Assembly (NCBI GenBank): GCA_046563655.1
Contig: CM102284.1
Location: 4,340,001-4,404,000, forward strand
Direction of reading: 5' to 3'
Length of the DNA stretch: 64,000 bases
Origin: Yuukianura sp. NJ FZ-2021
Taxonomy: Eukaryota
The notes beneath the pieces were generated by a model, which worked only from the letters and a program-made list of their open reading frames with translations, had not been told where the DNA came from and did no database searches. Position numbers and translations under genes: made by a program. Below are positions 4,674 to 45,194 of the stretch, one piece after another; position 1 is the stretch's first letter; the number at the start of each line of letters is the position of its first letter.

Positions 4674-7600
4674 TTTCCTCAGTCACAGTTCATCTCAATT
4701 GTTCAAATTTATTCAATTAGTGATGAAGCTACTTTTTAATGTTAAAGGAAAACAACTAATTTTTAAAACGAAGAAATTGACATTCCACCATTCCAGATTC
4801 TATCTTAAAACTGAACAGATTTCGAATCGCTTGAGTTTGTAGCATCTCAGAACATTCCGCCATTCATAGAAAAAAACGATTTCGGAAACGATGAAAAATC
4901 TTTCATGAGATGTAAAATTGCTTTCGCCGCATTTAAAAAAAAAATCTGAAATTCAGAATTCGGATTCGTGCTTATTTCAGAAATTGCGTTTTTGGCATCC
5001 GACGTTTTCAAAAAATGAAGCTTTCAGTAAGCAAATCTAGGCTCCTGTTTTTGTTTTCTGTGTCATGGGTTGGGGACTTGAAAAGTTTGGAGTGCATGCC
5101 ATGGATTTGTTTAAAGGAAATTGTCTAATTTTTCTTTTTTGATATGCGCCAGACCCAATTTGACTCAAAAGTTAAACTACAATGAATTTTGTTCAGTAGA
5201 AGACAAATAAAATACAAATAAATTCCCGTTGCCCCAAGTGAGTGACAGAGTCTCCTTCCGTCGAAGAACAATCGCATGCAACAGACTAGGATTCTCAGGA
5301 AGATGCGGATTTTATTCCAAGCGGCAGCGATTTCCCGAGCTTATGTTGATATTGTCCTCCAGCAAAAGCCAACAGGTAGGCATACATAAGGAGAAGGTGG
5401 CGATGGTCGTAAGAAGGGGACAAGAATAGAGGAAACCGCGGTGGTGGTGGAGGAAGTGGAAATCCTAAATTATCATATGACGAAGCACATCGTTCGTAAG
5501 TACCTCAGCAGTGTTCTAAAAAGTTGAAACTTAAAACACACCGTGTGGGAAACCGCGTTTCCTCTGCTCAATCCAGAACCCTTTTGTAGCCAAAATAACA
5601 CAAACAATTGAGAAATGCAAGTTTTCAAAAACTTTTCACTCAAATTCAAGTCATAGATGTGAATTAAACGAATTGAGAGATAAAATATATATTAAATCTA
5701 TATTTCTTTATATTGAAATCATGCCAAAATCCGAAGGAATTGGCGTGGGAAGCAAGTTTCACCTTAGATTTTTATCACTCGCCGATTCATAAGCAACCTG
5801 GACAAATCTTAATACATTTTCGTCAAAAAGAATTTTTTCGGGTTTTCTAAGAATTCGAGAGTTGATACTTCCAAAAAAATAAAATTATGTTAGGTTTTAT
5901 TTAGAATAGGCGAATTAACCTAACATAAGTTGAGATTCTGCTAAGTCTCGAAGGAGGTAACCTGATAAAAACCTGCTTTCACCAAAAAATTTACCTTCGG
6001 AAGCAACCGGAAAAAGTTGTGTGACTTTGGCATTTGTCAAGATTAGTTTTAAAATACCAAAAAAAATGCGAATTTTCCAAAAACTAAAACTGACATTTCT
6101 AGCTAAAAGTAAATTGTGGGTTTTAAAAGTTTTTATAACTTTTACTTTTAAGTTAAAAGTTAAAATAAACCGTAAAGGTTGAAGTGTATAAGCAACGTGT
6201 CTGGCCAAATTTGCTGATACTAACTATGAGCAATAGTTGAAAAGTTTAAAAACTGTAAAACTTTCATTTTGAGATGGTAAGAAAGTGAGTCATTGTTTGG
6301 TTGTGTTGTTGTTGACCTTTTGAGTAAAAAGTGTTCCTAGAGGTCATTGTTGGAGGAGATGATTATGACTATTAAGGGTAGTTTTGAACACTGAACGCTA
6401 CTTCTGCGGTGAGCACGAGCTCACACAAACAGCTTCCTGTGATCTTCTACTTTTTTTAAATTTCTGTTTTCAAAACAGCACCTGGACTATGGTTTGTCCG
6501 TGTTAATCATAACCTTTCCTTTGAACCTAACCGATTAATTCAAACACCAGAAGCTTGTGCACGGCGTCAGCGGTTTCTTGCCTGGATCCACACGGCAGAC
6601 CACCGTTTCCAACAAAAAACTGTTACCGAATGCACTTTTTAGATCCAACTTAAGTTATTTTGAGATTAAAAATGGCCGAAGATGGACTACCGCCAGAATT
6701 TAGATTTAGTCCAATTCGGTCAATTGAAAAAGTGTTGCGAGTCATGATGATGAACAATTGAAAAGAAGCAGTTCCGGTGGAAATTACAAAGGAGAATGGA
6801 GTTTTCCCGAAGTAGAAGACAAGAATAGATTTTCAGTAAGGATCTGAACGTTGAGATTTCGGTAGGGTAGGCGGTGAATGTTGTGACGTGTGTTACAGCG
6901 TCTAAACCCATTAACACTCGTCCCATAACAAGTAAAGTCACATAAAACTTTGATTTAATACCCTATACAACGCTTGGCAGGTGGAGAACCTTCAATTCCC
7001 ATTACGAACCCCATTAATTGTTTAGCCGATGATGGTGGCTCGGGTTGGGATACTTCGGACGGATCCTCCGGAAGACAATGCAATAAAATTTCACACCAAA
7101 TTTCTATTGTTTCCAATCAACGAGACTTCAGAACCCTCAGATTTTGCATTTTTGCTTTAGTTCTCATGTCAAGTCGAAAATCCGCTTTATCTGACGAACG
7201 TTTACCTCCGATATCCACAGAAATAAAAAATTTTCAATGATTTACCATAAAAGACACTTCTACGATTCGGAAATCCGCGATTTTTAGGAATTCAAGCAAT
7301 CATTTTTGGTTGGTGCCGAAAATTTTGGAATTTAGAATTTCAAGCTTCGAAATCTCAAAAAAATACAACAACTACCCTATTTATCGGCGTTTACCTCACA
7401 CTAAAACAAAATTTTGCAATGTTCAGGATTCCAAGGAAGATTCACGCCAGGATCTGAAACATTGGGAATGCTTTGAAATTCAAAATTTTGAAATTTTGGC
7501 TCAGCATCTGGGAATTTGGTTTCTAATTTCTTCTGAAACGTAATTGACGCCAACGGTACCGGTAGATGCAGAGTAGAAAGTTGCTAAAGCGTGACACGGT

Positions 7601-40815: not shown

Positions 40816-43123
<2,308 letters not shown>

Positions 43124-43177
43124 CACCAAATTTACCTAAACACAAAATCACCAAAATTCAAAATTACTTATTCGTTA

Positions 43178-45023
43178 TTAAGAAGGAATCACACATGGCA
43201 ACGGTGGGTCTCGTTTCGCCTTAAATTAATTAACTTTGACGCCTAATTAGAAGTCACAGGTATAACGTAGAAATGTCTACAAGGGCTCTAAAAATTCGTC
43301 ATTATCTGTAGAATGCAGAGCCTTGAACCAAACTTGAATTTTTGTTGTGAAGTGATACTAAAAATTGAATACAAGGTTCAATTTTTTCTACGCGTCGAAT
43401 GATACCAAAATTCGGGAATTTGGTCAAGGCGGCTTAAGGGCCATGGTCTTCCGGATTTTTAGACACCTCAAACACATTTCTAGGTGTTATAATGAACATC
43501 TAATTAGCAAAAGTAGATGAAATTCTGAGGTAATTTACAAATTTGCAAATGTCGGCAATGAAATTAGCCGTTTCCATGGGAACATGTTGATTGTTTTGTT
43601 CCAGCTTATTTGATGTGTTGTACCCGGAAAAACTTTGATTCGTCAACCATTCAAAACAGTGCCGACTTTTGCACGTTTGAGCAGTGATTTTGCTTGGTTA
43701 CTAACGGCAATGACTGACACCAAATCGTAAACAAACGCTGCCTCTTACCCGTCCTTAATGAGGCGATTTACAGATTCGCTTATACGCAATTTCCCATAAG
43801 ACTTTTGGTGCATTTATTTCCTGATTGGTTAGGCGCTCAAAAAACTACGACCACACTTTTCGCATTAGCATACGCTGCTCCACATCCCGAGAATCGGCTT
43901 CCGGACGAAAACAGGACCCTTCGTCCACAAAACATAGGTTTTCTGGATGACGTTCCAGAAATCCACGGATTTTTGCTTTCTTTTCCTACGCATGGCAAAA
44001 CGGTTGAAGATTCGTCAAAAAGCTGATTCTCGGGATGTGGAGCAGCGTATGCTAATGCGAAAAGTGTGGTCGTAGTTTTTTGAGCGCCTAACCAATCAGG
44101 AAATAAATGCACCTTAAGATTGGGTCAGAGTTCACGAATTTTGTGTTTACAATTTACAATTTCGTATTACGTCACTAAGAGATGGGGCAACCTGAGAATT
44201 GAGGCTAAGAAATGGCTCACCCACTTCGCCATACCTATTCAGAAAAACCGCGAATGGTTCTCAAATTTGAAATTTTACGCAGTGATTCGCGAGTTAGCAT
44301 GAGTTGTACAAAATTTCAATCGTCAAGAATCCACCCGGCAGGGTTTTGCATGATAACGTAATGTGGGATTTCTCAATTCTCAGTCGTTGCTATGTCTACA
44401 AAGCGTTTTTTAGCGTTATTTTTATTGACCTGATGTCTCACCTTAAGGACGGGTAAGAGGCAGCGTTTGTTTACGATTTGGTGTCAGCCATTGCCGTTAG
44501 TAACAGAGCAAAATCACTGCTCAAACTTGCAAAAGTCGGCACTGTTTCCAATGATTGACAAACCAAAGTATTTCGCAGGATAGGAATTCAAACAACCTGG
44601 GACTCAACAATCAACTTGTATCCATGGAGACGGCTGATTTCAGTGCCGACATTTGCGAATTGCTAAATAATGTCAGAATTACATCTATTTTCTCTTATAA
44701 GTGTCTTACTATAATACCTAAAAATGCGTTTGAGGTGTCTAAAAATCCGGAAGACCATGGCGGACAATGATCAGGGACCAATTTCCCAAATTTTGGTGTC
44801 ATACAATACTTAGACAAAATTGGACTTTGTATCGTATTTTTTGCATTGTTTAGCAGCAAAATATCAAATTCTGACCCCTGATAATTCTTCCCCATGTATC
44901 AACGAATTTTTAGAGGTATTGTACAAATTTCTACGTCATTCCTGTGAGGACTTATAAGGCCTGAAAGTTAATTAATTTGAGGCAAAACGAGACCCACCGT
45001 TGCCATGTCTTATTCCTTCTTAA
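43178..45023. mobile_element. Array of TTAA-delimited non-autonomous DNA-transposon-like modules forming a large nested inverted repeat
   Basis: Arms 43182-43754 and 44447-45019 (573 bp each) are reverse-complementary homologs. TTAA occurs at 43178-81, 43755-58, 44114-17, 44443-46 and 45020-23. No transposase ORF is present. Confidence 0.85.
43807..44113. mobile_element. MITE-like element (307 bp) with 94-bp terminal inverted repeats
   Basis: 43807-43900 and 44020-44113 are reverse complements with one mismatch. Termini are GG...CC with TTAA on the right flank. This explains the mirror-image ORFs 43805+ and 44112-. Confidence 0.85.
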
Positions 45024-45188: not shown

Positions 45189-45194
45189 AATAAA
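45189..45194 (+). terminator. Candidate original polyadenylation signal of cathepsin L
   Basis: AATAAA in T-rich, UTR-like sequence resuming after the TTAA-bounded array. Confidence 0.4.

What the first reader, a model, noticed from the sequence alone, without database searches (positions are those of the whole stretch)
43178..45023. Composite-transposon-like array: TTAA-sharing modules bracketed by two inverted 573-bp elements
Seen: two arms of exactly 573 bp (43182-43754 and 44447-45019) in inverted orientation, each with TTAA on both sides. By my count the outer 60 bp differ at 4 positions and the inner 104 bp at 4 positions, while the middle is much more diverged. Between the arms lie a 307-bp MITE (43807-44113) and a 325-bp TTAA-to-TTAA segment (44118-44442). 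The four modules read GA..CC, GG..CC, GA..CC and GG..TC. Established: TTAA target sites with RR..YY termini characterise Kolobok transposons, whereas piggyBac uses TTAA with YY..RR. Inference: either serial insertion of Kolobok-like non-autonomous elements into one another's TTAA, or a Tn10-like composite unit in which two inverted elements mobilise the cargo between them. Conserved length with a diverged interior suggests an end-spacing constraint.
Basis: partly seen in the sequence, partly recalled or inferred. Interest (0 to 1): 0.8.

Follow-up and report, generated by a model that had tools for sequence, protein, structure and literature searches.

The report
Three transposons stacked at one TTAA
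Three separate non-coding mobile elements, likely moved by Kolobok-type enzymes, sit end to end at one TTAA site just behind a protease gene, a site that is empty in other samples; such end-to-end stacking is far commoner in this genome than chance, likely because the site beside an existing copy is favoured.

Summary
The inverted 573-bp arms and four TTAA junctions are real, but the array has three elements, not four. A and B are young copies from two subfamilies of a 573-bp family that is solo elsewhere. The overlooked 48-bp gap, the "MITE" and the 325-bp segment form one 684-bp element X (41 of 41 loci). X is an internally deleted derivative of KolobokE transposons in this genome; the scan noted one of these earlier (e1-7469913). 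The "MITE" is X's internal palindrome. Other samples carry the empty single-TTAA allele. No second arm-cargo-arm unit exists, and both outer ends are left ends, so Tn10-like mobility is unsupported. Serial insertion fits best. End-to-end junctions number 5 among 136 element sites against about 0.02 expected (3 without this locus, P about 2e-6), across families, suggesting targeting beside resident ends or extreme hot spots. The 573-bp length looks constrained (p = 0.012). The filled allele was not seen in reads, and A/B's transposase is not identified.

The parts
42960..43123 (+). Last coding exon and stop codon of a papain-family (C1) cysteine protease gene; the array begins 54 bp after the stop, likely in the 3' UTR
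   Evidence: Pfam PF00112, E 1.3e-20, on 42962-43120; the UTR position is inferred, and no RNA holder was listed
43166..43177 (.). Native flank that resembles the left end of element B (9 of 12 bases); it may have seeded the first insertion
   Evidence: highest of 228 insertion flanks; 22 of 7,600 background TTAA flanks reach 9 or more; post hoc
43178..43181 (.). TTAA target site (the one TTAA left in the empty allele)
   Evidence: joint 43177 to 45020 in runs X1 and X2
43182..43754 (+). Element A: 573-bp non-autonomous element, GA..CC, young subfamily, left end outward
   Evidence: 2 of 573 differences from solo copies L002 and L003; TTAA on both sides in 28 of 30 fetched copies
43755..43758 (.). 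Shared TTAA: A right end against X left end
43759..44442 (+). Element X: 684-bp non-autonomous internal-deletion derivative of KolobokE, TG..CC; includes the 48-bp gap, the palindrome and the 325-bp segment
   Evidence: Parts co-occur in 41 of 41 loci; matches bases 6-496 and 7163-7328 of a 7,328-bp transposase-coding element; 2 of 684 differences from solo copy L031
43807..44113 (.). Internal 307-bp palindrome of X (arms about 43802-43909 and 44011-44118), not a separate MITE; arms evolve in concert
   Evidence: also present in the long KolobokE copies; arms differ at 9.9 of 104 within a copy and 19.5 between copies
44114..44117 (.). Internal TTAA that is part of the palindrome's outer edge, not a target duplication
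   Evidence: TTAA in 6 of 44 copies; co-varies with the opposite 4-mer
44443..44446 (.). Shared TTAA: X right end against B right end
   Evidence: the same junction type occurs with a different X at L092
44447..45019 (-). Element B: 573-bp element of the same family as A, different young subfamily, left end outward
   Evidence: 1 of 573 differences from L091 (85 kb away on the same contig) and from L092
45020..45023 (.). Outer TTAA duplication

Best explanation
The array is three separate TTAA-flanked non-autonomous transposons (573, 684 and 573 bp) lying end to end at a site that is empty in other samples, likely built by three successive insertions into the same TTAA by KolobokE-type transposases. 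Shown: each part occurs solo elsewhere with TTAA flanks and has near-identical relatives; X derives from transposase-coding KolobokE elements; the empty allele keeps one TTAA; end-to-end junctions recur at other loci far above chance. Inferred: each insertion duplicated the TTAA, and later elements took the copy beside a resident end (simplest order: X first, then A and B, each with its right end toward X). Inferred and less certain (about 45% of this explanation): transposase bound to a resident end tethers the incoming complex, so the TTAA next to it is favoured. The alternative is passive re-use of hot spots (rival 1). That A and B use a KolobokE enzyme is inferred, not shown.
For: Solo copies with TTAA flanks. 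A, X and B differ from separate solo copies by 2/573, 2/684 and 1/573. The long partners encode PF20700 plus YqaJ, with the catalytic and zinc-finger motifs, and their TTAA duplication is shown by empty satellite units for L139 and L141. Empty allele in X1 and X2 (study P1) and in X4 (study P2). Five junctions at four loci against 0.022-0.024 expected for 136 sites; 3 remain without this locus, P about 2e-6; regional clustering is only 1.6-3.2-fold. At L196 an A copy sits in the TTAA before an old X-like left end, and homologous sites L167 and L171 show the single-TTAA state, which is serial insertion beside a resident end.
Against: No intermediate allele (X alone, or A plus X) was listed at this site, and the second site tested (L157) lacked both partners in the one empty allele seen (at most 3 and 2 samples, tables cut). 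No listed run bridges the filled allele. Terminal versus internal TTAA use is p = 0.027, but p = 0.12 without this locus. Solo insertion flanks are hardly more end-like than background (6 of 228 versus 157 of 7,600 at 8 or more of 12; Mann-Whitney p = 0.048). The candidate partner of A/B (L139) does not align above shuffles. 136 sites is a lower bound; 500 would give 0.33 expected.
Confidence: 0.78

Rival explanations
1. Serial insertion by passive hot-spot re-use. A few TTAA sites are very good targets (open chromatin, local hopping, tolerance in a compact genome), so they are hit repeatedly without any role for the resident ends. This differs from the best explanation only in the cause of the bias; the confidence given is its share of that cause.
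For: P-element dimers form this way at strong sites (bioRxiv 10.1101/158386, passages). Elements cluster regionally 1.6-3.2-fold. B's nearest twin is 85 kb away. The end-versus-internal test is not significant without this locus.
Against: Flank preference is weak (C before TTAA in 63 of 214 flanks). No internal TTAA was found used (0 of 233, counted in full-length copies, which biases this toward zero).
Confidence: 0.4
2. Concatemer co-insertion. Excised elements join outside the chromosome through their self-complementary TTAA ends, in any orientation, and enter the target together in one event.
For: At both sites tested the empty allele lacks all partners. All three parts are equally young. 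The L024 pair is identical (0 of 573) while 6-7 differences separate it from the two relatives compared.
Against: The outer ends would be left-left in three of four arrays, an unusual pair for asymmetric ends (inference). L196 shows insertion beside an old embedded end. Few haplotypes were sampled. TTAA overhangs are recalled from piggyBac and not shown for Kolobok.
Confidence: 0.12
3. Tn10-like composite transposon. The inverted A and B copies mobilise X as cargo, using their outer ends.
For: The geometry fits, the empty allele lacks the whole 1,842 bp, and a cut-and-paste move would leave no donor copy. KolobokP shows that composite-like forms exist in the superfamily, with direct repeats (PMC9587614, parts 1-4 of 6).
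Against: A and B come from different subfamilies (79% identical), each matching its own solo copies. No other arm-cargo-arm unit among 48 left ends (read by eye). X's twin L031 has no arms. Both outer ends are left ends, and left and right ends share only 8 of 20 bases.
Confidence: 0.05
4. Assembly artefact. The inversion or stacking was created by mis-joining repeats.
For: No listed run bridges the filled allele.
Against: The arms are different subfamilies, not a mirrored read. All four joints are exact TTAAs. Unique flanks are colinear with a 19,769-bp contig that holds the empty allele. The same X-B junction type occurs at L092 with a different X.
Confidence: 0.04

Closest known systems
KolobokE lineage of the Kolobok superfamily and its non-autonomous derivatives (Kojima and Bao 2022, PMC9587614; read parts 1-4 of 6)
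   Same: TTAA duplication; the long partners have GA..CC ends, a DDD/E transposase with C/DxxH, two zinc fingers and a downstream PD-D/ExK (YqaJ) nuclease.
   Different: A, B and X have asymmetric ends with almost no terminal inverted repeat (8 and 4 of 20); X's mobile subfamily starts TG, not RR; X carries a 307-bp subterminal palindrome; end-to-end stacking across families is not described in the parts read.
Tandem dimers by double insertion at one target site, P element and hobo (McGurk and Barbash, bioRxiv 10.1101/158386; passages)
   Same: Intact ends separated by exactly one target duplication; formed during active transposition; polymorphic.
   Different: There the dimers are of one element and mostly head-to-tail (55/85 strains versus 8/85 head-to-head); here 3 of 5 junctions join unrelated families, 3 of 5 are right end to right end, and one site holds three elements.
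Plant MITE multimers (Jiang and Wessler 2001, seen only as summarised in review PMC5172404; passage)
   Same: Non-autonomous elements found adjacent or nested more often than expected, from independent insertions, sometimes across families.
   Different: Here insertion is at the terminal duplication and was not found inside the elements; different superfamily and host.
IR-targeting by IS30 and IS911 (PMC9333248; passages) and Sleeping Beauty tethering near transposase binding motifs (PMC4786924; passages)
   Same: Insertion next to, or near, sequence bound by the element's own transposase; IS30 makes abutted end-end junctions.
   Different: IS30 gives only left-right junctions of one element through circles; Sleeping Beauty is enriched within 100 bp, not at the terminal duplication. 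The mechanism here is inferred from counts only.
KolobokP composite-like elements and bacterial Tn10 (PMC9587614; Tn10 features recalled)
   Same: Two similar end-bearing units around an internal segment; length-constrained units (about 450 or 660 bp in KolobokP, 573 bp here).
   Different: KolobokP repeats are direct and flank a recurring coding region; here the arms are inverted, of different subfamilies, and the unit occurs once.

Membership tests
Kolobok superfamily | TTAA target-site duplication | tested here: met
   Empty allele with one TTAA; TTAA on both sides in 28 of 30 A copies; satellite empty units for L139 and L141
Kolobok superfamily | 5'-RR..YY-3' termini (elements A and B) | tested here: met
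   GA..CC in both; a third subfamily reads GG..CC
Kolobok superfamily | 5'-RR..YY-3' termini (element X in the window) | tested here: not met
   X starts TG; its long partners and other subfamilies read GA..CC, so X is filed as a variant derivative by descent, not as a typical member
KolobokE | DDD/E transposase with C/DxxH and zinc fingers in a partner that shares the ends (X) | tested here: met
   L138 and L141 share both ends with X and encode PF20700 with all motifs; catalytic residues assigned by inspection against the paper's description; no tree with named Kolobok sequences was built
KolobokE | [quoted passage not shown] | tested here: met
   PF09588 YqaJ, E 2e-12 to 8e-12, in 3 of 3 transposase copies
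KolobokE | Autonomous partner that shares the ends of A and B | tested here: inconclusive
   L139 shares the terminal 6 bases with the right end and two short motifs at the left; anchored matches 11 and 14 of 30; local alignment not above 100 shuffles
MITE (the 307-bp piece) | Occurs solo with its own target duplication | tested here: not met
   0 solo among 41 loci and 58 of 58 exact arm-motif hits in X copies (matched by eye to loci; for two new ones); TTAA on both sides in 1 of 44
Composite transposon (Tn10-like) | The arm-cargo-arm unit recurs or moves as one | tested here: not met
   One occurrence among 48 left ends; X's twin has no arms; mobility itself cannot be assayed here
KolobokP | Long terminal direct repeats around a recurring internal region | tested here: not met
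   Arms are inverted; no shared internal region next to A or B copies
piggyBac | YY..RR termini | tested here: not met
   Ends read GA..CC and TG..CC; rule as in PMC9587614

The most novel reading that the evidence does not exclude
KolobokE transposases have dual target specificity, like bacterial IS30 and IS911: besides ordinary TTAA sites they insert at the TTAA beside a resident element's end, across families and in any orientation. This would build mixed end-to-end arrays and inverted pairs in an animal genome and offer a route to composite-like forms such as KolobokP.
Probability: 0.35. Interest if true: 0.65.

Novelty: new variant of a known kind. Interest (0 to 1): 0.38.

Why it matters
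If only hot-spot re-use, this is a clean, polymorphic example of a known process (double insertion) in a superfamily where I found it undescribed. If the transposase targets the site beside resident ends, it is a natural end-directed targeting rule in a eukaryotic DDE transposon, testable with intact-looking transposase genes from the same genome. It would also suggest how composite-like Kolobok forms and inverted pairs arise. Locally, the 1.8-kb insert likely lies in a protease gene's 3' UTR and would give a long double-stranded RNA if transcribed through (inferred, untested).

Tried and rejected
Invertible segment in X: BLAST showed the palindrome in both orientations, but its spacer is forward in 43 of 44 copies and tied in 1; rejected as an artefact of the palindrome. 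The 307-bp piece as an independent MITE: rejected; an ancient nested origin is not excluded. L196 was first counted as a sixth junction, then dropped because its TTAA lies inside a larger repeat; one search used 6 and 4 junctions, one search uses 5 and 3. General preference for end-like flanks: not found. Twenty-one further motif hits examined for junctions: 0 of 21. Longer A/B relatives: 6 unpaired ends examined, none holds a Kolobok transposase; only 3 transposase copies were found in the genome. L139 as partner of A/B: not above shuffles. X-only allele at L157: not listed; the empty allele there lacks both elements and has one changed base in the target; inconclusive. Expression: no RNA holder listed. 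No related genomes were available. Literature: searches showed no title on Kolobok end-to-end stacking; most hits were seen as listings only, no supplements were read, and Repbase and Dfam could not be searched.

Full report
Observation. The four outer junctions are exact TTAAs at 43178, 43755, 44443 and 45020, and the two 573-bp arms are inverted and 78.9% identical by BLAST, with conserved ends. The 307-bp piece is a strong palindrome, but its left flank is TTTT, and a 48-bp stretch between arm A and it was overlooked.

What the parts are. Searches of the window's own genome (98.7 Mb, 22 contigs) gave 41 matches each for A and for B, from 40 scored candidates, so these are lower bounds. TTAA flanks both sides in 28 of the 30 A copies fetched. 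A and B belong to one family of at least 62 sites, in 10 subfamilies up to 27% apart. A differs from its nearest solo copies by 2 of 573 bases and B by 1 of 573, so the arms are two separate young copies, not one diverged pair. The gap, the palindrome and the 325-bp piece lie together in the same order in all 59 loci fetched for the two pieces (41 distinct sites). All 58 exact hits of an arm motif fall in such copies (matched by eye). They form one 684-bp element X (43759-44442), 2 of 684 bases from a solo copy. The TTAA at 44114 is not a target duplication: it is TTAA in 6 of 44 copies, and the 4-mers on the two sides of the palindrome are reverse complements in 22 of 44.

Autonomous partners. 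PF20700 has three hits in the genome, and a protein search found the same three. Two lie inside 5.6-kb and 7.3-kb elements that carry X's ends, palindrome included. X matches bases 6-496 (75%) and 7163-7328 (80%) of the 7,328-bp element, and a sister subfamily matches its first 496 bases at 95%. All three proteins carry a downstream YqaJ nuclease domain and the motifs described for KolobokE (residues assigned by inspection against PMC9587614, of which I read parts 1-4 of 6). Two of them sit in satellites whose uninterrupted units show the single-TTAA empty site. X is therefore an internal-deletion derivative of KolobokE, although its own left end reads TG, not RR. For A and B the partner is not shown: the third element shares the terminal 6 bases of their right end and short motifs at the left, but alignment is not above shuffles. 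The 46 X-type copies with both ends indicate that unlike ends are normal for this family.

Polymorphism. Contigs of runs X1 and X2 (one sample, study P1) join 43177 to 45020, skipping 1,842 bases and leaving one TTAA; a 19,769-bp contig spans the site. Run X4 (study P2) shows the same empty state with small differences; X6 barely covers the region. No listed run bridges the filled allele and no partial allele was listed, but at most three samples were examined and the tables were cut. At a second junction locus (L157) one contig shows an allele that lacks both partners.

Stacking recurs. Among 223 element ends read in fetched loci, five junctions share a TTAA: two here, A-A at L024 (identical copies), X-X at L034 and X-B at L092. 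A sixth case (L196) was dropped from the count because its TTAA lies inside a larger repeat; it still shows an A copy entering the TTAA before an old X-like end, with empty homologues at L167 and L171. With 136 sites and 0.76-0.86 million TTAAs (density), uniform use predicts 0.022-0.024 junctions. Against this: the site count is a lower bound (500 sites would give 0.33); terminal versus internal TTAA use is 5 of 223 versus 0 of 233 (p = 0.027) but p = 0.12 without this locus, and the internal count comes from full-length copies; solo flanks are hardly more end-like than background; 0 of 21 further candidates were junctions. In all four true junctions that involve A or B it is the right end that faces the neighbour (p = 1/16 by my arithmetic); L196 uses the left end.

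Mechanism. Shown: three independent, young, TTAA-flanked elements at a polymorphic site, with stacking far above uniform expectation. Inferred: successive insertions, each duplicating the TTAA, most simply X first and then A and B. The cause of the bias is open. Transposase bound at a resident end may tether the incoming complex, as reported for Sleeping Beauty near its binding motifs (PMC4786924, passages) and for IS30 next to its ends (PMC9333248, passages). Or a few sites are extreme hot spots, as for P-element dimers (bioRxiv 10.1101/158386, passages). I put these at about 45 to 40. The native flank here matches B's left end at 9 of 12 bases, the best of 228 flanks, which may have seeded the site; this is a post hoc observation. 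Co-insertion of a joined unit (0.12) fits the all-or-nothing alleles but rests on few samples. The Tn10-like model (0.05) has no second copy among 48 left ends and needs a left-left end pair in elements whose two ends share 8 of 20 bases.

Length and palindrome. Of 48 full A/B copies 37 are 573 bp. Private changes are 205 substitutions to 9 indels; changes between subfamilies are at least 280 to 2 (Fisher p = 0.012). KolobokP units are also length-constrained. X's palindrome arms differ at 9.9 of 104 bases within a copy and 19.5 between copies, which shows concerted evolution; the spacer does not invert.

Context and verdict. The array starts 54 bp after the stop codon of a papain-family protease gene, likely in the 3' UTR; expression could not be examined. 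Another note of the scan calls the host a springtail (e1-7469831, unchecked). The elements are new non-autonomous relatives of a known lineage, and insertion at a shared target duplication is known from P elements and from MITE multimers (PMC5172404, passage). What I did not find in print (searches; mostly listings, no supplements, no Repbase or Dfam) is cross-family, any-orientation stacking of Kolobok elements at this frequency. Verdict: real, not a composite transposon, a new variant of a known kind; interest 0.38.

Noticed in passing
L024/L197 (G000:C4:8338373-8339522): Two identical 573-bp A copies joined right end to right end at one TTAA, a perfect 1.15-kb palindrome; likely a local re-insertion beside the twin copy, or conversion between arms.
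   Followed up: partly
L139:3170-8050 and L141:2318-9645: Two of the three KolobokE transposase copies lie inside satellite arrays on contig C4, about 47 kb apart; both genes look intact.
   Followed up: partly
L115:1382-3603: A B-family copy interrupted by an element with two 554-bp direct repeats (97.7% identical) and an integrase-like frame; 'Pao/BEL-like LTR retrotransposon' is a recalled label.
   Followed up: no
L143:993-9000: Several long frames next to the C5 KolobokE element resemble integrase, DNA polymerase and capsid-type genes of a Polinton; the label is recalled and was not tested.
   Followed up: no
L167, L171, L196: An old repeat in which an X-like left end with a diverged palindrome follows a shared 41-bp lead-in; possibly a captured Kolobok end inside another element.
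   Followed up: partly
L194:400-1750, L127, L129, L133: X copies with an internal part-duplication (L194, unresolved) or large deletions that remove most of the palindrome, suggesting that the hairpin is unstable after insertion.
   Followed up: no
window 43265-43298 and 43452-43485: Element A holds an internal degenerate inverted repeat of 34 bp, possibly transposase binding sites.
   Followed up: no
window 43823-43831 and 44089-44097: Each palindrome arm holds a CCAAT-box-like word (motif recalled); in the long elements the palindrome lies upstream of the transposase gene and may be its promoter.
   Followed up: no
window 44102 and 45189: X supplies an AATAAA on the gene's strand at 44102; the first native one after the site is at 45189, so the insert could change polyadenylation.
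   Followed up: no
L222-L225, L227, L228: Another repeat family of at least 1.1 kb, 90-97% identical among six loci, with two close TTAAs; unrelated to A, B and X.
   Followed up: no
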